Part shown: positions 3,683 to 35,439 of the stretch, one piece after another | Layout of the letters: every line of letters begins with the position of its first letter | Position numbering within the stretch: position 1 is the first letter of the stretch | Source: Candidatus Uhrbacteria bacterium | Lineage (GTDB): Bacteria; Patescibacteriota; Patescibacteriia; UBA9934; GWF2-40-263 | Assembly: GCA_016208545.1 (NCBI GenBank) | Contig: JACQXU010000048.1 | Span: 1-42,018 of the forward strand | DNA length: 42,018 nucleotides | Direction of reading: 5' to 3' | The notes under the pieces: generated by a model | What the model was told of the DNA's origin: nothing | The model's database searches: none | The model's input: only the letters and a program-made list of their open reading frames with translations | Made by a program: the position numbers and the translations under genes

Positions 3683-3685
3683 AAT

Positions 3686-7500: not shown

Positions 7501-7511
7501 ATAATTTTTGC

Positions 7512-7592
7512 CATTGCGAAGGAGCGCCAGCTACCGAAGCAATCTCTTTGCTTAGATTGCTTCGTCGTCACTGCGTTCCTCCTAGTAATGAC
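7512..7592. repeat. Palindromic element of about 80 bp (family R2)
   Basis: cattgcgaaggagcg...cgaagcaatctc...agattgcttcg...agtaatgac. Second copy at 18349-18427. Internal inverted repeat CGAAGCAATCT/AGATTGCTTCG. Confidence 0.8.
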
Positions 7593-15755: not shown

Positions 15756-16448
15756 ATGCCCCTTCCCGCCATTGCAGTCACTGCTGGACGACTAGCCGCC
15801 GGAACTGGCCGTGCGGTAGCTTCTAGCTCTGCAAAAGGCGCAACTGGAGCCGCAAAAGTTGGATCACAAACTTCTCAACTCAAAAGCCAATTGCAAAAAG
15901 CGCGCAGACAAAATCAAGAACAGGAACCTGAAACAAATGCTCAAACTACTGCAATGACGCAAGCAATTTCTGCTGGAAGTCCAACGCAACAGCTCAAACA
16001 AGCGATCTCAATGGCGCGAACAAATTTGCTTAAAGCCGGCGCTGGAAATGGTGAGGCAGAATCTGGTGACTCACAAGAACTTGTAAAAATTGCTGCGCAA
16101 AGAGTGATACCTCGCGCGATTGCGTTTGCGGCAAATCACATCGCTGGCGCGCTCGAATTAAGCACAGGCGGAACTGCCTTTGTCGTAACTTGGCTTGTAC
16201 GCCTAATCACGCTTGGATGGCTAAACGTTGAAATGTTTTACGGACGTTGGATCGCGAAAGGAAAAAGCAAAGTGATTGCTCCGATTGCCTGGGATCCTTT
16301 TCCAATGCCGATCGATAAAGACGCGAACATTTTGCAGGCGCTTGTGATAATAGCCGACATTTTTTGTATAATTCTTTTAATTTTACCTTTTGTCCTGCCG
16401 ATCATTTTATTTTCAGCAGTCGTCGGCGGAATAACCTCAATTTTTTGA
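15756..16448 (+). CDS. Hypothetical membrane protein (low-complexity N-terminal half, multi-TM C-terminal half)
   Basis: 230-aa ORF with an Ala/Gly/Gln-rich N terminus and C-terminal helices (FVVTWLVRLITLGWL, ALVIIADIFCIILLILPFVLPIILFSAVVGG). Its stop is 3 nt before the next gene. Confidence 0.6.
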   Translation: MPLPAIAVTAGRLAAGTGRAVASSSAKGATGAAKVGSQTSQLKSQLQKARRQNQEQEPETNAQTTAMTQAISAGSPTQQLKQAISMARTNLLKAGAGNGEAESGDSQELVKIAAQRVIPRAIAFAANHIAGALELSTGGTAFVVTWLVRLITLGWLNVEMFYGRWIAKGKSKVIAPIAWDPFPMPIDKDANILQALVIIADIFCIILLILPFVLPIILFSAVVGGITSIF

Positions 16449-16451
16449 TAT

Positions 16452-17675
16452 ATGCAGGAGCCACTCAAACGCATTCTTACCATTATCGGTTTTATTCTTT
16501 CTGTAATTGTGATCGCTTTTGGAATCTATTTTGCGTTCTTCAGAGCTCAACCTCTTCCTGGTGAAGGAACACCGACTTCAGAAGAAGGAGCAATTGGTGA
16601 ACTGCCAAACGCTGGAGAAGGCGCGCCAAGCGTGACAGAAGAAGGAACTGCTGTCACGGGAGGTCTGCAAGAGGCTGATCAAACAGCGCGCGGAGGCGTT
16701 ACAGTCACAACAGAACTCACACAATCGTCAGTGTTTAACACAGCTCTTGCAGGCGACGGAAAAAGTATGAATTTTTATGATGAGTCCGACGGAAAATTTT
16801 ACAGTATTGATTCGAAAGGAAACGTTAAAGCGCTTTCAGAAAAACAATTTCCTTCTGTTGAAAAAGCAACGTGGAATAAAGATGCGCAAAAAGCAATTCT
16901 CGAATTTCCAGACGGTTCAAATGTTGTTTACGATTTTGACGCTGAAACTCAAGTTACACTTCCAAAACATTGGGAAGATTTTGATTTCTCTCCAACGACC
17001 GATGAATTGGCCGCAAAAAGTCTCGGGCTTGATCCTGACAACCGCTGGCTGGTGCTTTCAAACGCTGACGGTTCAAATGTAAAAAGCATTCAAGCTCTCG
17101 GTGACAACGAAAGCAAAGTTCAAGTGAACTGGTCGCCAAACGATCAGGTAGTTGCGTTTTCAGACACAGCTGAAGGTCAAGGAAGTTTTGATCGAAAACT
17201 GATTGTTCCGCTTGGAAAAAATCACGAAAACTTCAAAGGACTCGAAGTTGAAGGGCTTGGTTTTTCTTCACAATGGTCGCCAGACGGAAAACAGCTTTTG
17301 TATTCCGTTTCAGGATCGTACAGTAATTATCGCCCGCTTTTGTGGATTGTGGACGGCACAAGCGCGAGCATGGGAAAAAATCGCAAAAGTCTTTCGGTGA
17401 ACACTTGGGTTGAAAAATGTTCGTTCGCTAGCTCTGACACAATTTTTTGCGCAGTCCCTCGCGATCTTCCGCCAAATGCTGGATTTCAACCTGCGGCATT
17501 TAACGATCTTTCAGATTCACTTTACAAAATAGATCTTGCAACAGGAACTTCTACTCTAATCGCAATTCCAGAAGGAGATAAAACAATGTCAAATTTGTTT
17601 GTGACAGAAGATCAATCGCTTTTGTATTACACAAACACAATAAGCGGACGTTTGGAATATATTAAGTTAAAATAG
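16452..17675 (+). CDS. Membrane-anchored TolB-like beta-propeller (PD40-repeat) protein
   Basis: N-terminal TM helix (ILTIIGFILSVIVIAFGIYFAFF). Repeated WSP(D/N)G..(L/V).(Y/F)S motifs (WSPNDQVVAFSD, WSPDGKQLLYSV). Confidence 0.7.
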   Translation: MQEPLKRILTIIGFILSVIVIAFGIYFAFFRAQPLPGEGTPTSEEGAIGELPNAGEGAPSVTEEGTAVTGGLQEADQTARGGVTVTTELTQSSVFNTALAGDGKSMNFYDESDGKFYSIDSKGNVKALSEKQFPSVEKATWNKDAQKAILEFPDGSNVVYDFDAETQVTLPKHWEDFDFSPTTDELAAKSLGLDPDNRWLVLSNADGSNVKSIQALGDNESKVQVNWSPNDQVVAFSDTAEGQGSFDRKLIVPLGKNHENFKGLEVEGLGFSSQWSPDGKQLLYSVSGSYSNYRPLLWIVDGTSASMGKNRKSLSVNTWVEKCSFASSDTIFCAVPRDLPPNAGFQPAAFNDLSDSLYKIDLATGTSTLIAIPEGDKTMSNLFVTEDQSLLYYTNTISGRLEYIKLK

Positions 17676-17676
17676 T

Positions 17677-18324
17677 ATGAACAAATGGCTCTCTTTTATT
17701 TTGATCGGCTTTTTTGCCGTTGTTGTTTTTCTTTTTTATTCTTTTTTTCTTCAGCCAATCAATTTTGAACGTTTGCAAAAAGAACAACAAAAAATAACAC
17801 TCACTGAACCGACAGCAACATTTGTGAACCCTTCGCGCGGTGCAAACAACGCAAAAGTCACAATTATTGAGTTTGGGGATTTTGAATGCACAGCGTGCCG
17901 AGATTTGATGCCAGCTCTTGAAACCGCGCTCAAAACCTATCCAAACGACGTTCGTCTTGTTTGGAAAGATTTACCAAATGATTCTGCGCACGATCAAGCG
18001 ACTCCGTCAGCAGTGGCCGCGCATTGTGCTGACAGACAAAGCGCTTTTTGGCAATATCATGACGTCTTATTTCAACGACAAGGATATTTATCAGAAGATC
18101 AATACATTCAAATCGCGAATGAACTCAAACTTGATACAGACCGGTTTGCCTCGTGTATTCAAGATCAAGATACTCTTCCGATAGTTCAAAAAGACAAAGA
18201 AGAAGGATTGGCGCTTGGAATTGTCGCCACACCAACTGTTTTTGTGAATAAAGAAAAACTTGTCGGAGCAGTTAGTGTGGACGAACTATTGCAAGTGATT
18301 CAACAAGAACTTTCAAAACAATAA
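17677..18324 (+). CDS. DsbA-family thiol:disulfide oxidoreductase, membrane anchored
   Basis: N-terminal TM helix and a thioredoxin-fold CxxC site (FGDFECTACR) in a DsbA-like context (TPTVFVN). Confidence 0.85.
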   Translation: MNKWLSFILIGFFAVVVFLFYSFFLQPINFERLQKEQQKITLTEPTATFVNPSRGANNAKVTIIEFGDFECTACRDLMPALETALKTYPNDVRLVWKDLPNDSAHDQATPSAVAAHCADRQSAFWQYHDVLFQRQGYLSEDQYIQIANELKLDTDRFASCIQDQDTLPIVQKDKEEGLALGIVATPTVFVNKEKLVGAVSVDELLQVIQQELSKQ

Positions 18325-18348
18325 TTATGAAACAGTCGCGAAACATGT

Positions 18349-18427
18349 CATTGCGAGGAGCGAAGCGACGAAGCAATCTCTGCAAACTAGGAGATTGCTT
18401 CGCTCCCTTTTGGTCGCTCGCAATGAC
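18349..18427. repeat. Palindromic element of about 80 bp (family R2), second copy
   Basis: cattgcgaggagcgaagcgacgaagcaatctc tgcaaactagg gagattgcttcgctccc...cgctcgcaatgac. The ATG chosen for the next gene (18423) lies in the terminal caATGac. Confidence 0.85.
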
Positions 18428-19940
18428 AAACAGAATTACTGTTTTGTTAATTTTGCTTTTCATTATTCTCATACCAACTCGCGTATTCGCGGCTTCGACT
18501 TGTTATTGTTATTTCGGTGAAAAAAATGATTGCGCACAAACTTCTGTCAGTGAAAATGCAACAGTCGACGAATGCAACCTCGCGTGTGAAACAAAATATC
18601 TGGAAATTTTCAAAGGCGCTGATTTTTCAGATCAGGCAGGAGGAGCGAATGACGCGGCTGCTTTGTCAAATTGTTCTTCCGCTCACGAATCCGCCAATGA
18701 AGTTGAAGAAAAACCATTTCAGGGCGGAGTTCTTCCAAAATTGAATGTTGATATTCCGACTGTTACTTTTACACCAGTACTTCAGAAAGGCGGTAATTTG
18801 GAAATCAACTTTTTGGGAAATTATATCCAAGGTCTTTATATTTATCTAATCACAATTTCCTCCGTGATCGCTGTAGTTTTTCTCATGATAGGAGGTTTGA
18901 AATGGGTTTTGGCCGCAGGCGGCGCTTCAAGCATCGCATCAGCAAAAACAATGATCAAAAATGCCGTGATTGGACTTGTTTTGCTGTTGAGTGTTGTTTT
19001 GATTCTCGAAACAGTGAATCCGCAACTTGTAACATTTGATCCGTTTACGATCGAACGAATCCAGAAAATCGAAGCTGGTGAATCGTTGCATGCGGAAGAA
19101 AACTCCGCAGAAGAACCATATGAACCAATTACAACAACACCAGTTACACAAGGAACACAAGTAACTTTGCCGTATTCAGATGGAGGCAGATTAAAAATGG
19201 AGTATATTCAACTGCCACTTGCGTCTGGAGATGAGTATATTACTCCACCGCGCGCATGCACAATTCCAGTTCCGTCTGAATTAGTTTCATTAAGTGGTGT
19301 TGAAATAAATCCAAAATTTCTAGGAAATTTAGATTGTAATATTTCGTCATCAACAAAAAATAAAAAACGTCCTGATAGTCAAATTCAAATGATTGTTCTT
19401 CATCAAGGTTTCAAAAGTGATAGTGGACAAAATGGAGCTATGTGGTTTCAGGATTATCACTACGGAAAAATAGTAACCTGTCAAAAAAGTAAATCTGGAT
19501 TGTTTAATTACAAAGCCTGTCAACGAAACGGACAAAAATTTGTGTCTCAACCAACCAAGAATCAAACACCTGTTTCCAGTCATTTTGCTGTAACTTTAGG
19601 CGGAACCATCTATCAACTCACTGATGTTGGTCATATAACAAATAACTGTGGGGGTTGCGGAACAAACAAAATAGGAATTGGAATAGATCTTCAATATTCG
19701 ACAGAAGGAGAAAAAAATGTTTATTCAGACGCACAATACGAAAGTGTCGCAAAACTAATTAAAGGATTAAGTGAAAAATACGGATTCCAAATTAGTGACA
19801 GCACGATCAAAGGGCATTGCGAGGTTGGGAAACATTCGGATCCGCCAAATTACGACCTTAAAAAACTTGGTCAAAAAATTGGAGTAACGCTTGATCCTGG
19901 CCAACACGGAAGTTCACAATGTAGTTGGATTTCTAACTAA
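18423..19940 (+). CDS. Secreted Cys-rich domain + T4SS-pilin-like two-helix membrane domain + amidase_2-like (N-acetylmuramoyl-L-alanine amidase/PGRP) domain fusion
   Basis: Signal peptide MTNRITVLLILLFIILIPTRVFA. Cys-rich module CYCYFGEKNDC..C..C. Two TM helices ending in ETVNPQL, which resembles the TrbC/VirB2-type pilin family common in CPR. The C terminus has an amidase-like pattern (MIVLHQG, SSHFAV..GGTIYQL, IGIDL, IKGHCEV). Start set downstream of the R2 repeat. Confidence 0.65.
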   Translation: MTNRITVLLILLFIILIPTRVFAASTCYCYFGEKNDCAQTSVSENATVDECNLACETKYLEIFKGADFSDQAGGANDAAALSNCSSAHESANEVEEKPFQGGVLPKLNVDIPTVTFTPVLQKGGNLEINFLGNYIQGLYIYLITISSVIAVVFLMIGGLKWVLAAGGASSIASAKTMIKNAVIGLVLLLSVVLILETVNPQLVTFDPFTIERIQKIEAGESLHAEENSAEEPYEPITTTPVTQGTQVTLPYSDGGRLKMEYIQLPLASGDEYITPPRACTIPVPSELVSLSGVEINPKFLGNLDCNISSSTKNKKRPDSQIQMIVLHQGFKSDSGQNGAMWFQDYHYGKIVTCQKSKSGLFNYKACQRNGQKFVSQPTKNQTPVSSHFAVTLGGTIYQLTDVGHITNNCGGCGTNKIGIGIDLQYSTEGEKNVYSDAQYESVAKLIKGLSEKYGFQISDSTIKGHCEVGKHSDPPNYDLKKLGQKIGVTLDPGQHGSSQCSWISN

Positions 19941-19941
19941 T

Positions 19942-21228
19942 ATGTTCATCTGCACTCACTGCGACGCGCAATCACAAAAATGGGCTGGAAGATGTTTTGA
20001 ATGCCAGAAATGGGGGACGATGGTTGAACAAGAAGTAACTTCAAAAAAAACAACGTCCGCTTCAAATACGCGCGCTAAAGAATCAAAAAAACTTTCAGAA
20101 CTAGCAGGACAAAACGAACACACACGAATACAAACACTTGAGCCTGAAATTGATCGTGTACTCGGAGGAGGGATCGTTAAAGGATCTCTCGTTCTTTTAT
20201 CTGGAGAACCCGGAATCGGCAAATCAACACTCGTAGCTGAAATAGCGAAACGTTTTGTCGAACAAGGAAATCCTGTATTGTATATTTCCGGCGAAGAGTC
20301 AGCGCCTCAACTTAAAACAAGATTTGATCGCTTGAACACAAAATTAGATCAACTATTTTTTCTTGAAGCTGGATCAGTCGAATCAATCGTTCAAACAATT
20401 GAAAAAGAAAAACCAAAAATTGTTGTGATTGATTCAATCCAAACTTTATTTTCAGATGGAATCGACAGCACTGCCGGAAGTCCGACAACGGTTCGCTACG
20501 CGACTTCCCTTTTGCTTGAACTTGCAAAACGAACTCATGTTTCAATTCTTCTGATCGGCCAAGTTACAAAAGACGGCATGGTCGCAGGCCCAAAAACCCT
20601 CGAACACCTTGTTGATGTTGTCTTATCGCTCGATGGAGATTCTTCTCATTCATATCGCTGGCTTTCATGCTCAAAAAATCGTTTTGGCGCCACAGACGAA
20701 GTCGGTGTATTTGAAATGACTTCGCAAGGACTCAAGCCAGTTACAAATCCATCTGCAAAATTTTTGGAAGAACGAGTTGCGGTACCTGGTTCTGTAATTG
20801 CCGCGACAGTCGAAGGTTCTCGCGTATTTTTAGTTGAAATTCAAGCGCTTGTTGAAAAAACTTCCTATGGAATTCCTGTGCGCCGCGCATCTGGATTTGA
20901 TCAAAATCGGTTGCAAATGCTGATCGCAATTCTTTCAAAACGAGCAGGATTAAAACTCGGCGAACAAGATATTTATGTAAACGTAATCGGCGGAATGAAA
21001 GTTACAGAACCGGCTGTTGATCTGGCTGTGTGTGCTGCGATAATAAGCGCATCAAAAAATACCGCGTTTGAAGAAGCTACTGTTTTTTTCGGCGAAGTCG
21101 GACTTGGAGGAGAAATAAGACGAGTTACAGCATCTGAAAAACGTTTGGCAGAATCAAAACGTTTAGGACTAAAAAAAATCTTCGGACCCGAGATTGGGAA
21201 TATAAATAAAATTTCAGAACTATTCTAA
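19942..21228 (+). CDS. radA: DNA repair protein RadA/Sms
   Basis: N-terminal zinc finger (CTHCDAQSQKWAGRCFEC), RecA-like Walker A (GEPGIGKST), KNRFG motif, Lon-protease-like C-terminal domain. Start at ATG 19942, directly after the preceding stop. Confidence 0.94.
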   Translation: MFICTHCDAQSQKWAGRCFECQKWGTMVEQEVTSKKTTSASNTRAKESKKLSELAGQNEHTRIQTLEPEIDRVLGGGIVKGSLVLLSGEPGIGKSTLVAEIAKRFVEQGNPVLYISGEESAPQLKTRFDRLNTKLDQLFFLEAGSVESIVQTIEKEKPKIVVIDSIQTLFSDGIDSTAGSPTTVRYATSLLLELAKRTHVSILLIGQVTKDGMVAGPKTLEHLVDVVLSLDGDSSHSYRWLSCSKNRFGATDEVGVFEMTSQGLKPVTNPSAKFLEERVAVPGSVIAATVEGSRVFLVEIQALVEKTSYGIPVRRASGFDQNRLQMLIAILSKRAGLKLGEQDIYVNVIGGMKVTEPAVDLAVCAAIISASKNTAFEEATVFFGEVGLGGEIRRVTASEKRLAESKRLGLKKIFGPEIGNINKISELF

Positions 21229-24340: not shown

Positions 24341-25341
24341 ATGAACCACGACACCGCGAACTCGGCCTGTAAACACACAAAATCGATTAAGTTTGGAGGA
24401 CGTCGTAGACAGTGCATCTCCTGTAAAAAGACGTGGTCTGTGCGTGCTAGAAAGCGTGGTGCAAAGCCTCGCAAAAATCACGTGATGAGTCTCGAGAAAA
24501 CATTCGTCGAGAAACTTACACTCGTGCAACAAGCACGCAGAGCTCACAAGAGTGCAAATGCGTTTTCAAAACAACACGCACAAACACTTACGGGTCTGTG
24601 TGAAAAACAATGGCCGCACACCGTCCCTGAAGGATCACTCGTTCTTGTCATGGATGGCATCTGGTTTACGTTGAATGAGAGCCGTACACGGTCTACCTCA
24701 CAGGATTTCGTCAGGTTCAGGGTGACACTCTGCATTTCTTGCCACCCATTCTGCGACCCGGTCACGAGTCTCAGAAGCAGTGGAGAGAAGTCTTAGATGC
24801 AATCCCTCAAGAGATCCATCATCGTATTTGTGCCGTTGTTTCGGACAGTTTTAGTGGTGCTGGTGGTCTCGCGAAGAAGTACAGTTGGATCTTTCAACGA
24901 TGCCAGGCACATCTCTTACTACGGTTGTCGACGCTGTGCGGTGACAACAAACTGGCGGTGAGTTGGAGAGAAGGTCGTCAAGAAATTAAACGTCTCATGC
25001 ACACACTCATGAACACAAGGGACGAGAAGAAGGTTTCAACAATCGTCGAGCAACTTCTCGCTCTCGGTGCGCATCCACAGTGTCCACAACGACTACGTCA
25101 GATTGTGAAACGAACTGTGAGAACGCTCAACGAGTATCGCGCGTGTTATCTCCATCCAGAACTTCGTTTACCGGCAACGACCAACGCAGTTGAGAATACG
25201 AACGGAAGGATTCGCTCTGTCCTGAATCGTGCTCGTGGTTGTCGGACTCCTGAATCGCTCATTCATTGGATCACAGCCTTTCTCTGGTTCCATCCAACAG
25301 TGAAATGTCGACCAAAGTTACCAACAGAATTAAAGCGTTAA
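24341..25341 (+). pseudogene. DDE transposase with a single frameshift (IS remnant; family uncertain, IS256-like or IS1-like pattern)
   Basis: Frame 2 gives a zinc-finger-like N terminus (CKH..RRQCISCKKTW) and LVLVMDGIWFTLNE. Homology-like sequence continues in frame 1 from about 24679 (EPYTVYLTGF...ESQKQWREVL...AVVSDSFSG...QRCQAHLLLRL...TTNAVENTNGRIRSVLNRARG). No slippery heptamer at the shift. Visibly more GC-rich than the flanks. Confidence 0.7.
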
Positions 25342-26723: not shown

Positions 26724-27425
26724 TCACATATTCCCTTTCGCGATCACGATTCCCCACACGCGTTTCACGCCGTGCTCTTTCAAACATCGAGCCGCAGAGT
26801 CCATTGTCGCGCCAGAAGTAAATACGTCGTCACACAACACAACTTCATCTGGAAATTCGGCTAATTGCGAATTTATAGAAAATAGTCCATCCAGCTCCCC
26901 GAGTTTTCTAACTTCGTGCGATTTTTGCGCTTGCGATTTTGTTTGACGAGTTCGAATAAGCAAATCAAAAACAGGACGATTAAAAATCTGTCCGCACCAG
27001 TCTGCTAAAATCCCAGCTTGATCAAATCCTCGTTCGCGGCGTTTGAAAATATGAAGCGGAATCGGCGCAAAAACAAAATTTGAAAATGGCGGCTGAAGAG
27101 CTGGCGCGCCGCGAACCAACCAGCGGAATAAAATATCTTGCGCGGTTTTGTCACCAATATATTTCCATTGATGAATCGCTTCGCGAACAACTGGATTTCC
27201 GTAATGCGCAAAAACAGAAAGTCCGTCCAAAAAACTTTCGTCTCGACATTTGTCGCACACAAACGACATCGAACCTTTTCCGCAGAACGGGCAGTCAAAT
27301 CGAACCGGCGCTGGCCACCAAGTTGTTGAGCATGTTAAACACCAAAGGGTGCCCTCTGTGTGACACCCCAAACAAAATCTAGGAAAAAGAGATTCTATAA
27401 CCAATCTGCTGATGCGACTTTCCAT
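26724..27425 (-). CDS. comFC: ComF family protein (ComFC-type phosphoribosyltransferase-fold competence protein)
   Basis: N-terminal Cys4 zinc-finger pairs (CLGC..CLTC; CPFC..CDKC) and a PRTase motif (VVLCDDVFTSGATM). Its start overlaps the upstream ORF by 31 nt. Confidence 0.88.
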   Translation of the reverse strand: MESRISRLVIESLFPRFCLGCHTEGTLWCLTCSTTWWPAPVRFDCPFCGKGSMSFVCDKCRDESFLDGLSVFAHYGNPVVREAIHQWKYIGDKTAQDILFRWLVRGAPALQPPFSNFVFAPIPLHIFKRRERGFDQAGILADWCGQIFNRPVFDLLIRTRQTKSQAQKSHEVRKLGELDGLFSINSQLAEFPDEVVLCDDVFTSGATMDSAARCLKEHGVKRVWGIVIAKGNM

Positions 27426-27976
27426 ACACCTTCGATTCTAGCGAGTTCAAGCAAAATTTCTTGATTTTCAACACTAACATTTTGTGGCGAATCTTTTGCA
27501 ATCTCTCGCTGTGTGTTCAGACGTATTTCTGCCGTGCCATTTACTTCGTCCATTTTTTCAACATTAACGATAAGGACAATTGTTGTCACACCATAGTACG
27601 TTTCAGGAAGAGTTGAATTTTCGATCATGACTTCTGTTTCCTGTGCAAAAGTATCTGTCATGAGCGGAAGTACATCAATCAAATTTTGAAAATTTGCTTC
27701 ATTTGAATAACTCCCATATCGCTCAGTGAAAATTTTCGCAATCGTAATAGCGCCAGCCGATTGATTTCGCGTGTCTTGTTCCTGTTTGAGCTGTTGTTCT
27801 TTTAGAGTTGGTTCTGATTCTGTTGTTCCTTCGGTAGTTTGTGGCGTTTCAACCGATGGTTCTGTTGAAGGCGATTCATCTGACTTAAACAAAAACCATA
27901 ATAACCACAAAAGCAACAATAAAAGAACAATAATAATCAAACCAATAACTGTTAAGCGCATTTTTCGTGTTGTCAT
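27395..27976 (-). CDS. Membrane-anchored protein with an NTF2-like C-terminal domain, candidate VirB8/TcpC-like T4SS component
   Basis: 193 aa. One TM helix (LTVIGLIIIVLLLLLLWLLWFLF), a Ser/Thr/Glu/Pro-rich linker, then a domain of about 120 aa ending in EILLELARIEGVWKVASADWL, typical of NTF2/Tim44-like folds. ATGA overlap with the virB4 stop. The assignment is inference. Confidence 0.45.
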   Translation of the reverse strand: MTTRKMRLTVIGLIIIVLLLLLLWLLWFLFKSDESPSTEPSVETPQTTEGTTESEPTLKEQQLKQEQDTRNQSAGAITIAKIFTERYGSYSNEANFQNLIDVLPLMTDTFAQETEVMIENSTLPETYYGVTTIVLIVNVEKMDEVNGTAEIRLNTQREIAKDSPQNVSVENQEILLELARIEGVWKVASADWL

Positions 27977-29985
27977 AATACTTCTTTAGATTCTTTTTCA
28001 ATATCAAATTCCTCCGCTCCGCTTTGCGCAGGCTGAAGCCTGCGGCTACCGTCTTCTTTTGTCTCCTCCAGCTTTTTCTCCGCCTCATCAAATTCCTTTT
28101 TTGCTCGTTCAATTTCGATCAACTGCTGTGGACTAGTTGTAACAAGCTGATCTTCTGTGTACGAAGCAACAACTTTAATCGCCGCGTGTTTTTGTCCAGC
28201 AAAGAAAATCCCCTCACCAACTCCAGATTCGAGCAAAAGATATTTTTCTCCATCTGTTAAATTGAAAGTTTTTTGAATAAGTTCAACTGCAGACGGTGAT
28301 TGTTTGAGTAAAAGTTGAAGAGCAGAGTTCGTGACAATCGCCTGGCCATAAGGTGAACGCAAAAAGTCGTTTACATCTTGTGTGATTGTTGTAACACCGA
28401 GCCAATACTTTCGCGCGCGTTTAACAAGCGCGAAAATAAATTTTGCTGAATCTTCGTTTGTCATCAGCCACCATGCCTCATCAATCACGAGAATTCTTTT
28501 CTTGCGTTCACTGCGTGTAACATTCCAAATGTAATTTACGATAGTGTAAATTCCAACCGGCCGCAATTCATCTTCCAAATCTCGTACAGAAAAAACAACA
28601 AGCTGATTTTTCATTTCAACAGTCGTTGGAGAGTTGAGGAGTCCTGCAAACGTTCCATCAGTGTATTTTTTCAACCTCGCAACAATCGCTTCAGCGCCTT
28701 CCATTCCTTCCAAAACATCTTGGAAATCCTGCATAATAGGCGGTTCGATATCTGCAAGTGTTGTGAGATCTGCTGTAATATCTTTTTTCGCGTATGTTTC
28801 AATGAGCGCGCGATCGAGAATCGAATCTTCCTCTGGTGTAAATCCGAGTTTACCTTCTTCTCCAATCGGCGTGCCAATCATAATTCGAAGTAAACCTTTG
28901 AGAGTGATGACGGCACTTCGAATAATATCATCAACTTTGGTTCCCTCTCCCACAGCTCGCGGCAAATCAAATGGATTCACTTTAGCCTCTGACGCAAGAG
29001 AAACATTGATGTACGTTCCACCAACTGCGTCTGACAAATGTTTATATTCCATTTCCGGATCAATCACAATAACGTCGGTTCCCATCATGAGCGAACGCAA
29101 AATTTCCAGTTTGATAGCATAAGATTTTCCGGCTCCGGAAGTTGCAAACACAACTGAATTTGCATTTTGCAAACTAAAACGGTCAAACAAAATTAAAGAA
29201 TTGTTATGACGATTGATTCCAAAAAGAATTCCGTTGTCTGAAGTTAAATCTGAACTAATGAATGGAAAAGAAGCTGCGATCGGAGACGTGTTCATGTTGT
29301 AATTGATCACGAGCTCATCGTTTCCAAGCGGAACAGTTGAATTGAAACCTTGTTCAGCTTGATAAAATCCAGCTTTTGTATAAATAAGTTTGCTTCCAAA
29401 AATTGCTTCAACTTCTGAACTGAAACGATCAAGTTCTTCTTCGCTTTTGGCATAAATTGTAACGTAAAAAGCGAATTGAAAAAAATGCTCTATGCCTTGA
29501 GTGATCGCATCGCGCAGTGCTTCGATGTCGCGAAGCGCCGTTTCAGCAAGTGGATCTCGAGGTGCGCCTTTTTCCGCGCTTCCAAAAATTTGCGCTTCAA
29601 GAACACCAACTTTTTTCTGAAGCTGTTTGAGGATGATGTTTGCTTTGAGTGGATAAAAAAACATTGCAACATCAAATGTTTTGTTCAGATTGATGAGCGA
29701 CGCAGACCATCCGAGTCCGATGTGGCGAGGATATGTAATAATAAAAATCGTGCGCACATAAACTCCGGAAAGCAAAAGCGAACGTGGCCGAACTTCAAAC
29801 GCGGCCGGTGAAATGATGTCTTTCACTGTTACGACGCCTTTGTGATAAATGCGCTCCTCTTCAAGAAGTTCGCGCTCTTTTTTGAGCGCTACTTCTTCCG
29901 GTTTGACTTTCTGCTCTTTTGGCGGAGGAGGCGTTGGAAGTGATTCTTTAATTTTTCCGATTTCGATAGCCATATTATTAGTCAT
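27973..29985 (-). CDS. virB4: VirB4/TraC-like type IV secretion ATPase
   Basis: 670 aa. Walker A VFATSGAGKS, Walker B RILVIDEAWW, and a VirB4-like N-domain pattern (YVRTIFIITYPRHIGLGW). Confidence 0.88.
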   Translation of the reverse strand: MTNNMAIEIGKIKESLPTPPPPKEQKVKPEEVALKKERELLEEERIYHKGVVTVKDIISPAAFEVRPRSLLLSGVYVRTIFIITYPRHIGLGWSASLINLNKTFDVAMFFYPLKANIILKQLQKKVGVLEAQIFGSAEKGAPRDPLAETALRDIEALRDAITQGIEHFFQFAFYVTIYAKSEEELDRFSSEVEAIFGSKLIYTKAGFYQAEQGFNSTVPLGNDELVINYNMNTSPIAASFPFISSDLTSDNGILFGINRHNNSLILFDRFSLQNANSVVFATSGAGKSYAIKLEILRSLMMGTDVIVIDPEMEYKHLSDAVGGTYINVSLASEAKVNPFDLPRAVGEGTKVDDIIRSAVITLKGLLRIMIGTPIGEEGKLGFTPEEDSILDRALIETYAKKDITADLTTLADIEPPIMQDFQDVLEGMEGAEAIVARLKKYTDGTFAGLLNSPTTVEMKNQLVVFSVRDLEDELRPVGIYTIVNYIWNVTRSERKKRILVIDEAWWLMTNEDSAKFIFALVKRARKYWLGVTTITQDVNDFLRSPYGQAIVTNSALQLLLKQSPSAVELIQKTFNLTDGEKYLLLESGVGEGIFFAGQKHAAIKVVASYTEDQLVTTSPQQLIEIERAKKEFDEAEKKLEETKEDGSRRLQPAQSGAEEFDIEKESKEVL
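28026..28056. repeat. R1 palindromic repeat embedded in frame in the virB4 3' region
   Basis: gcgcaggctgaagcctgcggctaccgtcttc matches 35829-35859 in 30 of 31 positions. It is translated as EDGSRRLQPA. Confidence 0.9.
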
Positions 29986-30020
29986 TGAGTCGTGGAGTCA
30001 TGAAGTCGTCATGACTCAAC
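29986..30020. repeat. R3-type GAGTC-word palindromic repeat in the spacer upstream of virB4
   Basis: tgagtcgtggagtcatgaagtcgtcatgactca. It covers the 23-nt spacer and the stop codon of the upstream ORF. Confidence 0.75.
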
Positions 30021-30689
30021 TTGTATTTCTTCAAGACTTGCCAATTTTTCTTCTTCAAACACATCTGGATTATACACATTGTAATAAAGTTCGATCAGAC
30101 TTTGTGTATCCAAACGCGCTGACGCGAGCCCCATACTATTCAAAGCTCCTTGAATTATTTCAACACGTCGCAAAATTTGTTCAATGCGGTCGTCGAGCTG
30201 TTTTTGATTTAACTTTGCCGATGCGGCCGGCGACAAAGATTCTGACAAACGCGTCCAAAAATTTTTCCGTTTATTTGTTAGCGGATCGTACGGCAAAACC
30301 AGATAAAACCGTTTTTGCATAATCTGTCCGAGTTCAACAAGCTCGCCAACAAATGTGCGGTAATCTAAAATCTGCGCGCGCAAAAGATCGTTTTCTGTTT
30401 TCCGTTCCTGATCTTTAAGAGCGTTCATGTAACCATCAATGTTCATGCGCCGTGATTGAATTACAATCTGAACTGGATATTCAAGACTGTTCAAAAACGA
30501 CATGTAAGCTTGAATGATTGCTTCTTGTTCGTCTTCGGATTTGAGCGCGAAATTGATACTCGAAACCAACAAAACCGCGCGAACAGTTCCATCTTTTAAT
30601 ATCACCATATCATCGCGAATCTCTGCAATATCAAGAAAATTTACGGTTGTTGGTCCTGGTTTTGGTTTGGCAAGTTTTTTTGAAAACAT
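30009..30689 (-). CDS. VirB4 N-terminal-domain-like protein with no ATPase domain
   Basis: 226 aa. VNFLDIAEIRDDMVILKDGTVRAVLLVSSINFALKSEDEQ...YPVQIVIQSRR parallels the N-domain of the adjacent VirB4 (VTVKDIISPAAFEVRPRSLLLSGVYVRTIFIITYP...). No Walker motifs. Confidence 0.5.
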   Translation of the reverse strand: MFSKKLAKPKPGPTTVNFLDIAEIRDDMVILKDGTVRAVLLVSSINFALKSEDEQEAIIQAYMSFLNSLEYPVQIVIQSRRMNIDGYMNALKDQERKTENDLLRAQILDYRTFVGELVELGQIMQKRFYLVLPYDPLTNKRKNFWTRLSESLSPAASAKLNQKQLDDRIEQILRRVEIIQGALNSMGLASARLDTQSLIELYYNVYNPDVFEEEKLASLEEIQVES

Positions 30690-30694
30690 AATCG

Positions 30695-31126
30695 TTATTC
30701 TTCGGGTTGATAAATTCCGCCAGTATTCACAATTAAAGAAAGTTCATTTAATCGTGAAATAGAAATCGGGGCTTTGCGCGGCTGTATTTTTGGCAATTCC
30801 GGCGGAGCTTGTTTCATAAAAATTTTCAGTTCTGAATCGGAATATTTTTTATCCCAAATGCGCAATTTTGGTTTTTTGAATGTCTGGATGATGTTTAGAA
30901 GGAAATAATGAAAAACTTGGCCGTTGATTTTCGCAAACGCAACTGTTCCTGCGATGATCACAATCGGCACTCCAACAAGCAGAAACGGAACAAATGATAA
31001 AAGTTTGAACAATCCGAAATCCAAAAGTCCGGCGATCATAAGAATAATAAATTGCCGCGCCGTAATGGGCCCGAAAATTTTATCTTCTGCGTCAATAAAT
31101 TGTGGAACAACAAATTGGTCGGGCAT
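30695..31126 (-). CDS. PrgI/TcpE-like (VirB3-analogue) small membrane protein
   Basis: 143 aa. N-terminal FIDAEDKIFGPITARQFIILMIAGLL, then a second TM helix, which is the PrgI-family pattern of Gram-positive T4SS. Confidence 0.6.
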   Translation of the reverse strand: MPDQFVVPQFIDAEDKIFGPITARQFIILMIAGLLDFGLFKLLSFVPFLLVGVPIVIIAGTVAFAKINGQVFHYFLLNIIQTFKKPKLRIWDKKYSDSELKIFMKQAPPELPKIQPRKAPISISRLNELSLIVNTGGIYQPEE

Positions 31127-31127
31127 A

Positions 31128-32681
31128 TCAAAACCTTATTTCCGAATTCAACTTTATAAGTGCATCATACTCGACACGTTTCAAATCCCCAAGTTCTGCG
31201 TCGATTCCTTTTCCATTCAACAAAGCTTTTTGAGTTACTTCCATATATTGCCGATATAATGGACAAGCCCGAAATGCCTGCACACCTTGAACGCGTTTTT
31301 CATATCCTTGTTCTTCCAAAAGATCGAGCATATCTTTTAGACGAGAAATTGCCTGCAAAGGCTCATTTGACAATCGGCGAAAACGCTCTAAATCCATCGA
31401 ACGCAATTCATCAACCGGTCCAGATAGTCGCCGAGTAAATTGAACATCTTGAACAAGAGGTTTTGGGTGTTGGGTGTTGGGTTTTGTTTGCGGAATTATT
31501 TTTTCAATCGCTTGTTTCACTTTCTGTGCGTCAATTCGTTTTGCTTGTTGTTCCAAATGACTCTGTATTGAACCAGCCGCTGTCGCTCGCGCAAGCGGAG
31601 GCGCGGCAGGAACAACAGACTCTGTAGGAACTTTTCCAGTAACAGAAACGTAACGCCTATTTAATAACTGCGTTTCTTTGTGTTTCATTTGTTCCAATTT
31701 TTCAATCTCTTCTTGTTTTTGAATCTGTTTTTCCTGTCTTTCTTTCACGATTTCTTTTTGTTTGCGGTAATGGAATGCTTCAACATTCTGTTCGATGACT
31801 TGCGCAAGTTTTTCAAGCTCAATCCCCGCCATTCCAAGCCCGCCTCCTTCAACGGATTTTGCAAGCATTGCCCTTGTTTGCATTTTGTCGCGAACATTGT
31901 GAACTCGTGTTACAACAATTTCTCGACAACGCTCTTTCAAAAATGGATCTTCCATAACGCTGGAAATCTCAAGACAAATTTTTGCAACCGCTTCGTCAAG
32001 AGAACTGATTGTCGGCTGTAAAATTTCATTGCGCGTTTCAATTACTTTTTTAATTTCCTCTTCATCTTTTTTTCCAAATGTATCGAGGCTTGGCGCGCGA
32101 AAAAATTCTCGATCAAATTTCTCTATAGTTTCTCGCGCAAACTGCTGATCCATTTCAAGACCAGCCAATTTGAATGGACGGCTTAGAAATTCAATCGTCT
32201 CTTCTTTTGATCGTTTCTTTTCTAAATAATCAAGTATGATTCTTTCAAGTCTGTGAAGTTTTTGCGGCTCAAGATCTTCAACAAATTTTGCGACGAATGC
32301 TCGAACCTGAATTTCTGGATTCATGGCAGTGGTTTGCGTTGTCGTGGTTTGATTCCAATTGCGAACACGATCGCGAAGTCCTGGAACTTGATCAAAAATC
32401 GGCGCAAAAATCCGGACAGTTACAACTGAAAATAAATCAATGATTCTTTCTTCTGACAATTCCAAACGCTCTTTCAAACTTTTTTTTAGTTCATATTCTG
32501 AATAATCACCTGACACAAAACGAAAAATATCAGCACCAAGCAAAGGAATTTGTTCTAGGCTTAACCCAAACTCTGTCGCGATCCGTCGTTCTTGCTCGGT
32601 TACCTCTGTTGAAAAAAAGTATTCCGCGACATCCGGCGGCAAAAATAATTTTGTTTGAGATGTTTGAGTTGGATCGATCAT
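31128..32681 (-). CDS. Hypothetical protein (517 aa, helical and charged) inside the T4SS-like operon
   Basis: Long ORF. ATGA overlap with the upstream gene, and 1-nt spacing to the downstream gene. No recognisable motif. Contains an in-frame 7-bp tandem repeat at 31464-31484. Confidence 0.6.
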   Translation of the reverse strand: MIDPTQTSQTKLFLPPDVAEYFFSTEVTEQERRIATEFGLSLEQIPLLGADIFRFVSGDYSEYELKKSLKERLELSEERIIDLFSVVTVRIFAPIFDQVPGLRDRVRNWNQTTTTQTTAMNPEIQVRAFVAKFVEDLEPQKLHRLERIILDYLEKKRSKEETIEFLSRPFKLAGLEMDQQFARETIEKFDREFFRAPSLDTFGKKDEEEIKKVIETRNEILQPTISSLDEAVAKICLEISSVMEDPFLKERCREIVVTRVHNVRDKMQTRAMLAKSVEGGGLGMAGIELEKLAQVIEQNVEAFHYRKQKEIVKERQEKQIQKQEEIEKLEQMKHKETQLLNRRYVSVTGKVPTESVVPAAPPLARATAAGSIQSHLEQQAKRIDAQKVKQAIEKIIPQTKPNTQHPKPLVQDVQFTRRLSGPVDELRSMDLERFRRLSNEPLQAISRLKDMLDLLEEQGYEKRVQGVQAFRACPLYRQYMEVTQKALLNGKGIDAELGDLKRVEYDALIKLNSEIRF

Positions 32682-35371: not shown

Positions 35372-35439
35372 ATCTGATCGAATTATATCAGAAAAACAAA
35401 AGAAAAACCTGTGCGTTTGTGCACAGGCAAGAGTAGTAA

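What the first reader, a model, noticed from the sequence alone, without database searches (positions are those of the whole stretch)
15756..19940. Envelope locus ending in a Cys-rich / T4SS-pilin-like / peptidoglycan-amidase fusion protein, next to a DsbA
Four tightly packed genes have spacers of 1-3 nt between the first three, and the R2 repeat lies before the fourth. They encode a multi-TM protein, a TM-anchored TolB-like propeller, a TM-anchored DsbA, and a 505-aa protein. The last combines a signal peptide, a Cys-rich module (CYCYFGEKNDC..C..C), a two-helix hydrophobic hairpin ending in ETVNPQL that looks like the TrbC/VirB2-type pilin family, and a C-terminal amidase_2-like domain. Fusing a T4SS pilin-like membrane hairpin to a cell-wall amidase is unusual. 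It would physically couple pilus or channel insertion to local peptidoglycan cleavage, in the cell's own wall or a host's. The adjacent DsbA fits the need to oxidise the Cys-rich module. The locus is 8 kb from the VirB4/VirB6 operon, which lacks a pilin gene of its own.
Basis: partly seen in the sequence, partly recalled or inferred. Interest (0 to 1): 0.68.

Follow-up and report, generated by a model that had tools for sequence, protein, structure and literature searches.

The report
Pilin-anchored cell-wall hydrolase family
An ultra-small (CPR/Patescibacteria) bacterium encodes a cell-wall-cutting amidase joined to a type IV secretion pilin-like membrane hairpin; it belongs to a large family, which I could not find described, in which the same pilin module carries interchangeable wall-degrading enzymes beside the secretion-system genes.

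Summary
Window 15756-19940 holds four co-oriented genes: a membrane protein, a TM-anchored beta-propeller, a TM-anchored DsbA, and a 505-aa protein. The 505-aa protein has a signal peptide, a 6-Cys domain, a T4SS_pilin (PF18895) two-helix hairpin, a linker, and an Amidase_2 domain with an invariant AmpD-type His/His/Asp zinc site.

The contig is from a Candidatus Uhrbacteria bacterium. The fusion is not a one-off. The same N-terminal pilin module occurs with at least eight kinds of peptidoglycan-cleaving domain: Amidase_2, M23, C39_2, NlpC/P60, VanY/M15, M15_4, SLT and glucosaminidase/lysozyme.

In all 10 loci examined (nine distinct genomic places), 1-4 such genes sit in one syntenic slot: clpC, membrane protein, propeller, usually dsbA, the slot, radA, recG, then the VirB4/PrgI T4SS operon. 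N-module similarity does not track the catalytic domain, so the cassettes are shuffled.

The most likely reading is a functional VirB2-VirB1 fusion that localises wall cleavage to the T4SS. Whether it targets the cell's own wall or the host's wall is unresolved. Published surveys count these genes simply as "VirB2". I rate it a new variant of a known kind, with interest about 0.6.

The parts
15756..16448 (+). Gene 1: 230-aa protein with a variable, charged N-terminal half and a conserved C-terminal membrane domain (residues about 110-230).
   Evidence: ORF; hydrophobic C terminus; no Pfam or NCBIfam family. Syntenic homologues in L001, L002, L004 and L006. 46% identical to the C terminus of a 712-aa PT-TG-domain protein in the same slot of L007.
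16452..17675 (+). Gene 2: 407-aa N-terminally TM-anchored beta-propeller-like protein.
   Evidence: Weak TolB (TIGR02800 3e-06), PD40 and THOC3 propeller hits, all below cut-off. TM segment at residues 3-33. A protein of 403-422 aa occupies the same position in all 10 related loci.
17677..18324 (+). Gene 3: TM-anchored DsbA-like thiol:disulfide oxidoreductase (CTAC active site at C71/C74).
   Evidence: Thioredoxin_4 9.5e-27 and DSBA 7.8e-14. TM segment at 1-30 and Cys positions. Present directly upstream of the fusion gene(s) in 8 of 10 loci and absent in L008 and L010.
18346..18428 (.). Palindromic intergenic repeat ('R2'); its 3' arm includes the ATG of the fusion gene.
   Evidence: Sequence. 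RNA hairpin -48.7 kcal/mol, z -6.4. Second copy at about 7509-7590. The gap is 101 nt in L001 but only 3 nt in L002, so this is a lineage-specific insertion.
18423..19940 (+). Gene 4: 505-aa fusion protein (signal peptide, Cys-rich domain, pilin hairpin, linker, Amidase_2).
   Evidence: 100% identical to an NCBI protein annotated only as N-acetylmuramoyl-L-alanine amidase from a Candidatus Uhrbacteria bacterium.
18423..18491 (+). Signal peptide (residues 1-23, ...TRVFA/AS).
   Evidence: Hydrophobic segment at 1-29. The position is conserved in relatives. The cleavage site is inferred from the AXA-like motif.
18492..18698 (+). Extracytoplasmic Cys-rich domain (residues 24-92; C27, C29, C37, C51, C55, C84).
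   Evidence: Cys positions. C27, C29, C51 and C55 are at least 90% conserved. Confident alpha/beta model, pLDDT above 90. No PDB fold match and no Pfam family. Absent or replaced by other Cys-rich modules in many relatives.
18735..19037 (+). Conserved P-x-L-x-V-x-I-P motif plus the VirB2/T4SS_pilin-type two-helix hairpin, ending in NPQL (residues 105-205). This is the most conserved part of the family.
   Evidence: PF18895 at residues 135-195. Helices 130-163 and 168-198. Invariant P105, L107, Y134, Y139, A150, G158, G184, L185, L195, N199 and P200 across 17 proteins with five different C-terminal domains. Basic loop AKxxIKNA.
19377..19844 (+). Amidase_2 catalytic domain (residues 319-474). 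Putative Zn ligand codons: H327 (19401-19403), H465 (19815-19817), D473 (19839-19841). D422 lies at the AmpD Glu116 position and H471 at the Lys162 position.
   Evidence: Pfam 5.5e-14. Invariant columns in 8 sequences. Profile alignment to AmpD and T7 lysozyme. Fold matches to LysCS, AmpD, PlyL and T7 lysozyme.
19942..21228 (+). radA, immediately downstream; the fixed right-hand border of the variable slot.
   Evidence: same position in all related loci.
27395..37368 (-). Monoderm-type T4SS operon: M23 protein 35440-37368, 946-aa protein 32678-35518, 517-aa protein, PrgI 30695-31126, TraC/TrsD-like 30009-30689, VirB4-like 27973-29985, and a 193-aa TM protein.
   Evidence: The VirB4-like gene is seen at the same relative position in nine of the ten related loci; PrgI and the TraC-like gene are within view in six of them (L001, L004, the JGI 502-kb contig, L005, L007, L009); L003 and L010 end before the operon, while L002, L006 and L008 reach only VirB4. 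The 946-aa ORF has no Pfam hit at E up to 0.5, so its VirB6 assignment is not tested here.

Best explanation
The 505-aa protein is a Sec-exported, disulfide-stabilised N-acetylmuramoyl-L-alanine amidase. Its membrane module is a VirB2/T4SS_pilin-type hairpin, so functionally it is a VirB2-VirB1 fusion. It is one member of a polymorphic family of Uhrbacteria and allied Patescibacteria lineages (names as given by the source records; Uhrbacteria are taken to fall in GTDB class ABY1, which was not verified here).

Proposed mechanism.
1. The signal peptide is removed.
2. The hairpin sits in the cytoplasmic membrane with its basic loop on the inside. The N-terminal Cys-rich domain and the C-terminal amidase are both outside the membrane.
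3. The neighbouring DsbA oxidises the 14 cysteines.
4. The strongly conserved hairpin engages the nearby T4SS, either as a pilin subunit or as a pilin-pool component.
5. The tethered enzyme therefore cuts peptidoglycan only where the apparatus or pilus has to pass a wall. Its own wall is within reach of the linker of about 50 residues. A host wall is reachable only if the subunit is extracted from the membrane and polymerised.
6. Different genomes plug different wall-cleaving cassettes into the same pilin module.

Shown here: the domain architecture, the intact Zn site, conserved synteny with DsbA and the T4SS, cassette diversity, and cassette shuffling.

Inferred: the topology, oxidation by DsbA, docking or polymerisation with the T4SS, catalytic activity, and the target wall.
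For: Architecture. Amidase_2 scores 53 bits and PF18895 25.7 bits in this protein. PF18895 scores 30-42 bits in proteins sharing the module. 102 of 106 top representatives match PF18895, and 2 also match TrbC PF04956 at 1.1e-07.

Active site. H327, H465 and D473 are invariant and align to AmpD H154 and D164; D422 aligns to E116. The fold matches amidase endolysins, AmpD and T7 lysozyme.

Topology. There is a signal peptide, two TM helices and a Lys-rich loop.

Synteny. In all 10 loci examined (nine distinct genomic places: Uhrbacteria, Falkowbacteria and unclassified Patescibacteria), hairpin genes occur only in the slot between propeller/DsbA and radA. VirB4 is visible downstream in nine of these loci, with its end 5-10 kb from the slot and 4-6 kb from the last hairpin gene (about 8 kb in L002 and L008); L003 and L010 end before the operon.

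Polymorphism. At that slot I found Amidase_2, C39_2, VanY, M15_4, M23, NlpC/P60-like and an unknown domain, as 1-4 tandem genes.

Shuffling. The N-module of P0006 (amidase) is 73% identical to that of P0011 (different C-domain). It is only 30-43% identical to those of the amidase-bearing P0009 and P0010.

Hairpin conservation. The hairpin is the most conserved region, with 11 invariant residues across five C-domain types. That is more than a passive anchor needs.

SLT versions. Some relatives carry 2-4 tandem hairpins followed by SLT, the canonical VirB1 domain.

Literature.
- VirB2-like pilin arrays are part of Patescibacteria T4SS loci and are essential in S. epibionticum (PMC10633639; PMC12857230).
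- Most Patescibacteria genomes with VirB2 lack a recognisable VirB1, and ABY1 T4SS loci include comF, recG and radA (PMC12102498).
Against: - PF18895 is just below the gathering score in this protein.
- The high-confidence N-module model (pLDDT 91) has no significant PDB match, and no solved VirB2/TraA pilin appears in the top 50.
- No experiment shows that any PF18895 protein forms a pilus.
- The mature protein would carry about 100 aa and about 300 aa of globular mass on the two ends of the hairpin. That would crowd a homopolymeric VirB2-type filament.
- The T4SS operon has its own M23 hydrolase, so a VirB1 surrogate may not be needed.
- The gene sits in a housekeeping string (clpC to radA), 7.5 kb from the T4SS and on the opposite strand. 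Co-regulation is therefore not evident.
- The catalytic Lys and Tyr of T7 lysozyme are His471 and Ser386 here, so activity needs testing.
Confidence: 0.55

Rival explanations
1. T4SS-independent autolysin. The pilin-derived hairpin is only a membrane anchor. The enzyme remodels the cell's own wall for growth or division, and its proximity to the T4SS is a frozen accident of a very conserved gene order.
For: The gene lies in a tightly packed housekeeping string (clpC ... radA) on the strand opposite to the T4SS. A membrane tether with a flexible linker is ideally placed to reach the cell's own wall (one search shows low pLDDT at residues 201-253). No immunity gene follows it. NCBI annotates it simply as an amidase.
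Against: A housekeeping autolysin would not be expected to change the bond it cleaves between syntenic orthologues (amidase, endopeptidases, carboxypeptidase-type and glycosidases). It would also not be expected to shuffle cassettes. The hairpin is conserved far beyond a generic anchor and belongs to a T4SS-specific family. The slot keeps the same position relative to the T4SS operon (VirB4 4-8 kb beyond the last hairpin gene) in the nine loci where the operon is within the sequence held.
Confidence: 0.22
2. Host-directed polymorphic effector that is released. The pilin module is a trafficking domain. The C-terminal hydrolase is cleaved off near the invariant NP(Q)L motif, or delivered through the T4SS, to lyse or perforate the host wall, as in polymorphic toxins.
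For: The pattern of a conserved N-terminal module with hypervariable C-terminal enzymes, tandem paralogues and recombination is the signature of polymorphic toxin systems. N199-P200 are invariant at the membrane exit. In L007 the neighbouring gene-1 homologue carries a PT-TG pre-toxin domain (41.7 bits). Many Patescibacteria are obligate epibionts (PMC10633639).
Against: No immunity-like small gene follows the cassette; radA follows within 1-8 nt (10 nt in the JGI contig, and 443 nt in the frameshift-ridden L005). No processing site or protease is evident. Sec-exported proteins with two TM helices are not known T4SS substrates. Only wall hydrolases occur, with no nucleases, deaminases or similar domains among 106 representatives. 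That fits wall passage better than killing.
Confidence: 0.15
3. Non-catalytic peptidoglycan-binding module (PGRP-like) used for adhesion or sensing rather than cleavage.
For: The T7 lysozyme catalytic residues Tyr46 and Lys128 are replaced by Ser386 and His471. The fold search also returns many non-catalytic PGRPs.
Against: All three zinc ligands and an acidic residue at the AmpD Glu116 position are invariant across 49-82% identical sequences. Non-catalytic PGRPs typically lose a zinc ligand (established knowledge, not tested here). Sister proteins carry other bona fide hydrolase domains.
Confidence: 0.05

Closest known systems
VirB2/TrbC pilins and the VirB2-like (PF18895) pilin arrays of Patescibacteria T4SS (Wang et al. 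2023, PMC10633639; Quinonero-Coronel et al. 2025, PMC12102498)
   Same: Signal peptide followed by two hydrophobic helices with a short basic loop. Matches PF18895, and some relatives match TrbC PF04956. Encoded as an array of 1-4 variable genes in the conserved T4SS neighbourhood.
   Different: Canonical and Saccharibacterial pilins are small (about 70-150 aa). Here the hairpin is flanked by a Cys-rich domain of about 70 aa and a linker plus enzyme of about 300 aa. The array lies about 7.5 kb from virB4, between dsbA and radA, not inside the operon. Polymerisation is untested. The published survey lists such genes simply as VirB2 and records no extra domains.
VirB1-type T4SS wall hydrolases of monoderms (PrgK of pCF10, TraG of pIP501, TcpG, CwlT)
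   Same: Membrane-anchored, extracytoplasmic peptidoglycan hydrolases associated with a monoderm-type (VirB4/PrgI/VirB6) T4SS. They have modular and variable catalytic domains (SLT, CHAP/NlpC-P60, M23).
   Different: Those enzymes use a single generic N-terminal TM anchor and are encoded inside the T4SS operon. Here the anchor is a pilin-family hairpin, the catalytic repertoire is much wider (including Amidase_2, VanY/M15 and C39_2), and a separate M23 protein already sits in the operon.
Specialised ('evolved') T6SS structural effectors, e.g. Vibrio cholerae VgrG-3 with a C-terminal peptidoglycan hydrolase, Hcp-ET and PAAR-toxin fusions (from established knowledge, not checked here)
   Same: A structural subunit of a secretion filament or spike is covalently fused to an interchangeable enzymatic domain, often a wall hydrolase. 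The N-terminal structural module is conserved and the C termini are polymorphic.
   Different: It is a different secretion system and a different fold. T6SS effectors come with immunity genes, and none is evident here. Delivery to another cell is not shown here.
Amidase_2 enzymes: AmpD, T7 lysozyme, phage endolysins (LysCS 6srt, PlyL 1yb0)
   Same: The fold (Foldseek E 1.7e-05 to 5e-03) and the His/His/Asp zinc triad of the AmpD type.
   Different: There are long insertions with four extra conserved cysteines. His replaces the catalytic Lys162/Lys128 and Ser replaces T7 Tyr46. The domain is fused to a membrane hairpin rather than being soluble or joined to a cell-wall-binding domain.

Membership tests
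Amidase_2 (PF01510) N-acetylmuramoyl-L-alanine amidase | Significant match to the family profile | tested here: met
   53.1 bits against a cut-off of 26, E 5.5e-14, residues 319-474. NCBIfam AmpD 3.3e-07, below its cut-off.
Amidase_2 (PF01510) N-acetylmuramoyl-L-alanine amidase | Zinc-binding triad His / His / Cys-or-Asp | tested here: met
   H327, H465 and D473 are invariant in 8 sequences. H465 and D473 align to AmpD H154 and D164, and H465 aligns to T7 H122.
Amidase_2 (PF01510) N-acetylmuramoyl-L-alanine amidase | Amidase_2/PGRP alpha-beta fold | tested here: met
   Foldseek top hits are LysCS 6srt at 1.7e-05 (TM target 0.67), AmpD 2y28 at 1.1e-04, PlyL and T7 lysozyme. The model is of moderate quality (mean pLDDT 67).
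Amidase_2 (PF01510) N-acetylmuramoyl-L-alanine amidase | Catalytic general base/acid residues (AmpD Glu116 and Lys162; T7 Tyr46 and Lys128) | tested here: inconclusive
   D422 is at the Glu116 position, H471 at the Lys position and S386 at the Tyr46 position. All are invariant in the clade. This is a variant active site and activity is not measured.
VirB2/TrbC-type T4SS pilin (PF18895 T4SS_pilin, PF04956 TrbC) | Match to the pilin profile | tested here: inconclusive
   This protein scores 25.7 bits, 0.9 below the gathering score. Proteins sharing the same module score 30-42 bits. 102 of 106 representatives match, best 1.8e-25, and 2 match TrbC at 1.1e-07. The family-level assignment is solid but this protein is marginal.
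VirB2/TrbC-type T4SS pilin (PF18895 T4SS_pilin, PF04956 TrbC) | Leader peptide followed by two hydrophobic helices joined by a short basic loop | tested here: met
   Signal peptide at 1-23; helices at 130-163 and 168-198; loop contains AKTMIKNA.
VirB2/TrbC-type T4SS pilin (PF18895 T4SS_pilin, PF04956 TrbC) | Small mature protein consisting essentially of the hairpin | tested here: not met
   The protein is 505 aa, with about 100 aa before and about 300 aa after the hairpin.
VirB2/TrbC-type T4SS pilin (PF18895 T4SS_pilin, PF04956 TrbC) | Encoded with a T4SS (VirB4 and others) | tested here: met
   VirB4, PrgI and the rest of the operon start 7.5 kb away. VirB4 is seen at the same relative position in nine of the ten related loci, 4-8 kb beyond the last hairpin gene; L003 and L010 end before it.
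VirB2/TrbC-type T4SS pilin (PF18895 T4SS_pilin, PF04956 TrbC) | Structural similarity to solved pilins, and polymerisation into a lipid-containing filament | tested here: inconclusive
   The N-module model (pLDDT 91.3) gives no PDB match with E below 0.5 and no pilin among the top 50. A helical hairpin is poorly discriminated by Foldseek. Polymerisation cannot be tested with these tools.
VirB1-type T4SS-associated peptidoglycan hydrolase | Wall-hydrolase domain, membrane-tethered outside the cell, genetically linked to a T4SS | tested here: met
   Relatives carry SLT, the canonical VirB1 domain, after 2-4 hairpins.
VirB1-type T4SS-associated peptidoglycan hydrolase | Required for T4SS assembly or function | not testable with these tools
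   Needs genetics or biochemistry.
Polymorphic toxin / effector system | Conserved N-terminal module with variable, recombining C-terminal enzymatic domains | tested here: met
   At least eight C-domain types sit on one module. N-module identity is incongruent with C-domain type.
Polymorphic toxin / effector system | Cognate immunity gene immediately downstream | tested here: not met
   radA or another fusion gene follows directly in all 10 loci.
DsbA-family oxidoreductase (gene 3) | Thioredoxin fold profile match and CxxC motif, located outside the cytoplasm | tested here: met
   Thioredoxin_4 at 94.6 bits and DSBA at 52.3 bits. C71-T-A-C74 motif and an N-terminal TM segment.

The most novel reading that the evidence does not exclude
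The T4SS of ABY1-class Patescibacteria builds an enzymatically armed pilus. VirB2-type subunits each carry, on the filament's outer face, an interchangeable peptidoglycan-cleaving domain plus a Cys-rich binding domain. The growing structure would then digest its way through the epibiont's own wall and into the host's wall. Cassette swapping would track the hosts' wall chemistries. This would be the T4SS counterpart of evolved VgrG/Hcp effectors, and a concrete mechanism for how ultra-small epibionts breach their hosts.
Probability: 0.25. Interest if true: 0.85.

Novelty: new variant of a known kind. Interest (0 to 1): 0.62.

Why it matters
VirB2-like pilin arrays were recently found to be widespread in Patescibacteria and essential in the one genetically tractable species. 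Nobody knows what the structure is or how a monoderm T4SS with a pilus gets through peptidoglycan.

The published survey explicitly noted that most genomes with VirB2 lack VirB1. It concluded that pilus biogenesis may not need one (PMC12102498). The present family offers a simple alternative for the ABY1 lineage: the wall-cutting function is built into the pilin-like proteins themselves, in many interchangeable chemistries.

This gives three things:
- a testable model for T4SS or pilus passage through walls in CPR bacteria;
- a candidate host-interaction arsenal for uncultured epibionts;
- a correction to annotation. These proteins are currently labelled either as plain "amidase", "C39", "C40", "M23" or "carboxypeptidase", or as plain "VirB2"/"pilin".

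Tried and rejected
- Fold search of the high-confidence N-module against the PDB. There were no significant hits, so the pilin assignment has no structural confirmation and the Cys-rich domain has no fold assignment.
- Sequence search of the unknown C-terminal domain of P0012 against the PDB. There were no hits. A lysozyme/SLT-like nature was suspected from an E-S motif but is unsupported.
- PADLOC defence models for genes 1, 2 and 4. No hits, so a defence-system reading was dropped.
- Clade-specific and broad hairpin HMMs against all six frames of the window. No second pilin was found, so I rejected the idea of a small free pilin hidden in the T4SS operon.
- Profile search for gene 1. It returned only unannotated CPR proteins. 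The PT-TG fusion seen in L007 appears rare, so a toxin reading of gene 1 remains a lead only.
- A prophage or holin-endolysin reading. I rejected it because the locus is chromosomal and syntenic across at least nine assemblies or metagenomes, among housekeeping genes.
- The 537-aa ORF start at 18327. I rejected it because the extra 32 residues are the translation of the palindromic repeat, and relatives without the repeat start at the equivalent of M33.
- Literature searches for any description of pilin-hydrolase fusions found none. The library is not exhaustive.

Full report
**Origin and observation**

The window is the entire 42,018-nt contig of a Candidatus Uhrbacteria bacterium (CPR/Patescibacteria). 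The 505-aa product is 100% identical to an NCBI protein from a contig of exactly that length, annotated only as N-acetylmuramoyl-L-alanine amidase.

- 15756-16448 (230 aa)
- 16452-17675 (407 aa)
- 17677-18324 (215 aa)
- 18423-19940 (505 aa)

The spacers are 3, 1 and 98 nt. radA starts 1 nt after the last stop.

The 98-nt gap holds a long palindrome. As RNA it folds at -48.7 kcal/mol (z = -6.4) and includes the ATG. A related copy lies at about 7509-7590. The longer 537-aa ORF is an artefact of reading through this repeat.

**Domain content of the four genes**

- Gene 3 is a TM-anchored DsbA (Thioredoxin_4 9.5e-27, DSBA 7.8e-14; CTAC motif).
- Gene 2 has an N-terminal TM segment and only weak propeller hits (TolB 3e-06, PD40), all far below cut-off. 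"TolB-like propeller" is therefore plausible but soft.
- Gene 1 has no family. It has a hydrophobic, conserved C-terminal half.
- Gene 4 matches Amidase_2 significantly (53.1 bits, cut-off 26, residues 319-474).
- Gene 4 also matches T4SS_pilin PF18895 marginally (25.7 bits, cut-off 26.6, E 1.3e-05, residues 135-195).
- A weak NCBIfam hit to the Mbov_0395 pilin-like conjugal transfer family (E 0.002) supports the pilin call.

Gene 4 has 14 cysteines, 6 before and 8 after the hairpin. Its hydrophobic segments are at 1-29, 134-169 and 174-205.

**The amidase half**

A profile of eight relatives aligns "GHC...H-x-DP" to AmpD "GHC...K-x-DP" (H154, K162, D164). It also aligns "IGIDLQ" to AmpD "IGIELE" (E116). 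T7 lysozyme H122 aligns to H465.

H327, D422, H465, H471 and D473 are invariant across sequences 49-82% identical.

The whole-protein AlphaFold model is moderate (mean pLDDT 67). Its C-terminal domain retrieves amidase endolysins (LysCS 6srt at 1.7e-05), AmpD, PlyL, T7 lysozyme and PGRPs.

The Lys and Tyr of T7 lysozyme are His and Ser here, so activity is likely but needs measurement.

**The pilin half**

The hairpin is the best conserved part of the protein. Across 17 proteins with five different C-terminal domains, the invariant residues are P105, L107, Y134, Y139, A150, G158, G184, L185, L195, N199 and P200.

Relatives carrying the same module score 30-42 bits on PF18895. Of 106 top cluster representatives, 102 match PF18895 (best 1.8e-25). 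Two also match the canonical TrbC/VirB2 family at 1.1e-07.

A second AlphaFold run on residues 24-217 with a 60-sequence alignment gave a confident model (pLDDT 91.3). It shows a small alpha/beta Cys-rich domain, two short strands, and two long antiparallel helices.

Foldseek found nothing significant in the PDB for this model, and no solved pilin in the top 50. The pilin assignment therefore rests on sequence profiles, topology and gene neighbourhood, not on structural proof.

**The unexpected part: a polymorphic family**

Homologues of the full protein share the N-terminal module (signal peptide, Cys-rich domain, hairpin) but end in different enzymes:
- Amidase_2 in the query clade
- Peptidase_C39_2 in P0014
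- VanY/M15 in P0015 and P0016
- M23 in P0017
- an unassigned domain in P0011-P0013

A profile of the N-module found 49 more CPR proteins. Most lack the Cys-rich domain. They carry C39_2/C70, NlpC/P60, VanY/M15/M15_4, M23, glucosaminidase or phage-lysozyme domains.

An exhaustive HMMER search over 1.84 billion cluster representatives returned 44,791 hits at E up to 1e-3 and 2,559 at E up to 1e-30. The large total may include generic pilins and some contribution from low-information C-terminal columns. Only the top of the list was checked.

The Pfam tally for 106 of the top hits was:

| Family | Members matching |
|---|---|
| M23 | 19 |
| C39_2 | 14 |
| VanY | 12 |
| NlpC/P60 | 10 |
| M15_4 | 9 |
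| SLT | 4 |
| Amidase_2 | 2 |
| 3D | 1 |
| Glucosaminidase | 1 |

Some members have 2-4 tandem hairpins followed by SLT, the canonical VirB1 domain.

N-module identity does not follow C-domain type. P0006 (amidase) is 73% identical to P0011 (other domain), the same as to its amidase sister P0007. It is only 43% and 30% identical to the amidase-bearing P0009 and P0010. The cassettes are therefore exchanged, or the N-modules are homogenised between tandem paralogues.

**Genomic context**

In all 10 related loci fetched (nine distinct genomic places; L003 is a second contig of the same place as L002) the gene order is: clpC, gene-1 homologue, a propeller of 403-422 aa, usually dsbA, then 1-4 hairpin genes, radA, recG on the opposite strand, comF-like, and the VirB4 / TraC(TrsD)-like / PrgI operon. 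VirB4 is within the sequence held in nine of the ten, and PrgI in six.

The hairpin HMM hits only that slot within each 21-kb locus. The content of the slot differs between loci:

| Locus | Content of the slot |
|---|---|
| Window, L001 | Amidase_2 |
| L002, L003 | Amidase_2 + C39_2 |
| L004 | unknown domain + VanY |
| JGI 502-kb contig | VanY |
| L005 | C39_2 |
| L006 | M23 + NlpC/P60-like |
| L007 | M23 + M15_4 |
| L008 | four genes, including M15_4 |
| L009 | unknown domain + M15_4 |

DsbA is missing in L008 and L010.

This matches the published remark that ABY1-class T4SS loci include comF, recG and radA (PMC12102498).

**Literature**

- VirB2-like pilins (PF18895/PF04956) were surveyed in 3,035 Patescibacteria genomes. 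Arrays of 2-11 variable pilins were reported, and the authors noted that most genomes with VirB2 lack VirB1.
- The pilin array is essential in Southlakia epibionticum.
- None of these papers, nor the survey's supplementary table (which lists such genes simply as VirB2 by PF18895), mentions pilins fused to wall hydrolases.
- Five further full-text searches found no such description.
- The library is incomplete, so prior description elsewhere cannot be excluded.

**Mechanism**

What the sequence shows. The protein is Sec-type exported. Its two TM helices leave both large domains outside the membrane, and the basic loop inside. Both outside domains are Cys-rich. A membrane-bound DsbA is encoded immediately upstream in most genomes. 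The outside C-terminal domain has an intact amidase zinc site.

What synteny and family structure add. The hairpin belongs to a T4SS-specific family. It is conserved well beyond the needs of an anchor. Its genes occupy the place of the "pilin array" of the ABY1 T4SS neighbourhood. Only wall-cleaving domains are attached to it.

My best-supported reading (confidence about 0.55) is a functional VirB2-VirB1 fusion. The pilin module brings the enzyme to the T4SS, either as a subunit of whatever the pilins build or as a member of the membrane pilin pool. Peptidoglycan is then opened locally. The cell's own wall is within reach of the flexible linker of about 50 residues (pLDDT below 50 at residues 201-244).

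Reaching a host wall would require extraction and polymerisation, as known for VirB2 through VirB4. That point is established knowledge, not tested here.

Two facts are relevant to polymerisation. In solved F-type pili both pilin termini lie on the outer surface (established knowledge), so external decoration is geometrically conceivable. However, a homopolymer carrying about 400 extra residues per subunit would be crowded.

**Rivals**

- A T4SS-independent autolysin with a pilin-derived anchor (0.22). This fits the housekeeping neighbourhood. It fits poorly with cassette swapping and with the conservation of the hairpin.
- A released, host-directed polymorphic effector (0.15). This fits the polymorphism and the PT-TG domain found on a gene-1 homologue. 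It lacks an immunity gene and any processing evidence.
- A non-catalytic PG binder (0.05). This is disfavoured by the invariant zinc ligands.

**Verdict**

- The "unusual fusion" is in fact a common architecture in this lineage, apparently undescribed, and polymorphic.
- Novelty: new variant of a known kind.
- Interest: 0.62.
- The most novel reading still open is an enzymatically armed T4SS pilus that drills host walls. I give it about 0.25 probability, and it would deserve about 0.85 interest if true.

Noticed in passing
window 15756-16448; L007 4747-6885: The conserved C-terminal membrane domain of gene 1 (residues about 110-230, motif LGWLNxEMxYGRWIAKGKSK) is 46% identical (E 1e-27) to the C terminus of a 712-aa protein in the same slot of L007. 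That protein carries a Pfam PT-TG 'pre-toxin TG' domain (41.7 bits, cut-off 23.5). PT-TG normally precedes toxin modules, so gene 1 may be an effector-like membrane module. A profile search found only unannotated CPR proteins.
   Followed up: partly
proteins P0074, P0080, P0185 (also P0070, P0115, P0119): Single proteins with 2-4 tandem T4SS_pilin hairpins, several ending in an SLT lytic transglycosylase domain (E 1e-19 to 4e-28). These look like covalently concatenated pilins fused to the canonical VirB1 domain.
   Followed up: partly
window 18346-18428 and about 7509-7590: Palindromic REP-like element in two copies. The copy before the fusion gene forms a -48.7 kcal/mol hairpin that buries the start codon. 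The same element caused a spurious 32-33-aa N-terminal extension in the 537-aa ORF here and in the database protein P0002. A possible translational effect was not examined.
   Followed up: partly
window 3658-3700, 28026-28068, 35829-35871: A second palindromic repeat (GCGCAGGCTGAAGCCTGCGGCTACC) occurs three times. Two copies lie inside coding regions: the VirB4-like C terminus and the M23 protein, both reading ...GSRRLQPA.... This suggests in-frame insertion of a repeat element into T4SS genes.
   Followed up: no
window 1-66 vs 37602-37667; 21-66 vs 37737-37782: The first 66 nt of the contig are 98% reverse-complementary to a segment between the T4SS operon and serS. A further 83% direct copy lies nearby. 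This may be a repeat or mobile element, or the reason the assembly broke here.
   Followed up: no
window 24739-25341 (with 24341-24796): A C-terminal fragment of a Mutator-family transposase (PF00872, 24.1 bits, cut-off 21), overlapping an upstream ORF and lying next to tRNA-Arg and tRNA-Ser genes. It is probably a decayed IS.
   Followed up: partly
window 35440-37368: The first gene of the T4SS operon encodes a 642-aa M23 peptidase-domain protein. It is a separate candidate for the VirB1-like wall-opening role, which complicates the simple idea that the pilin-amidase fusion is the system's only hydrolase.
   Followed up: partly
L010 6960-8523; L005: Some 'short' family members are probably assembly or frameshift fragments. 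P0052 (253 aa) overlaps the next 278-aa ORF by 35 nt. L005 has many split genes (clpC, recG, tyrS). Apparent free-standing Cys-rich-plus-hairpin proteins should therefore be treated with caution.
   Followed up: no
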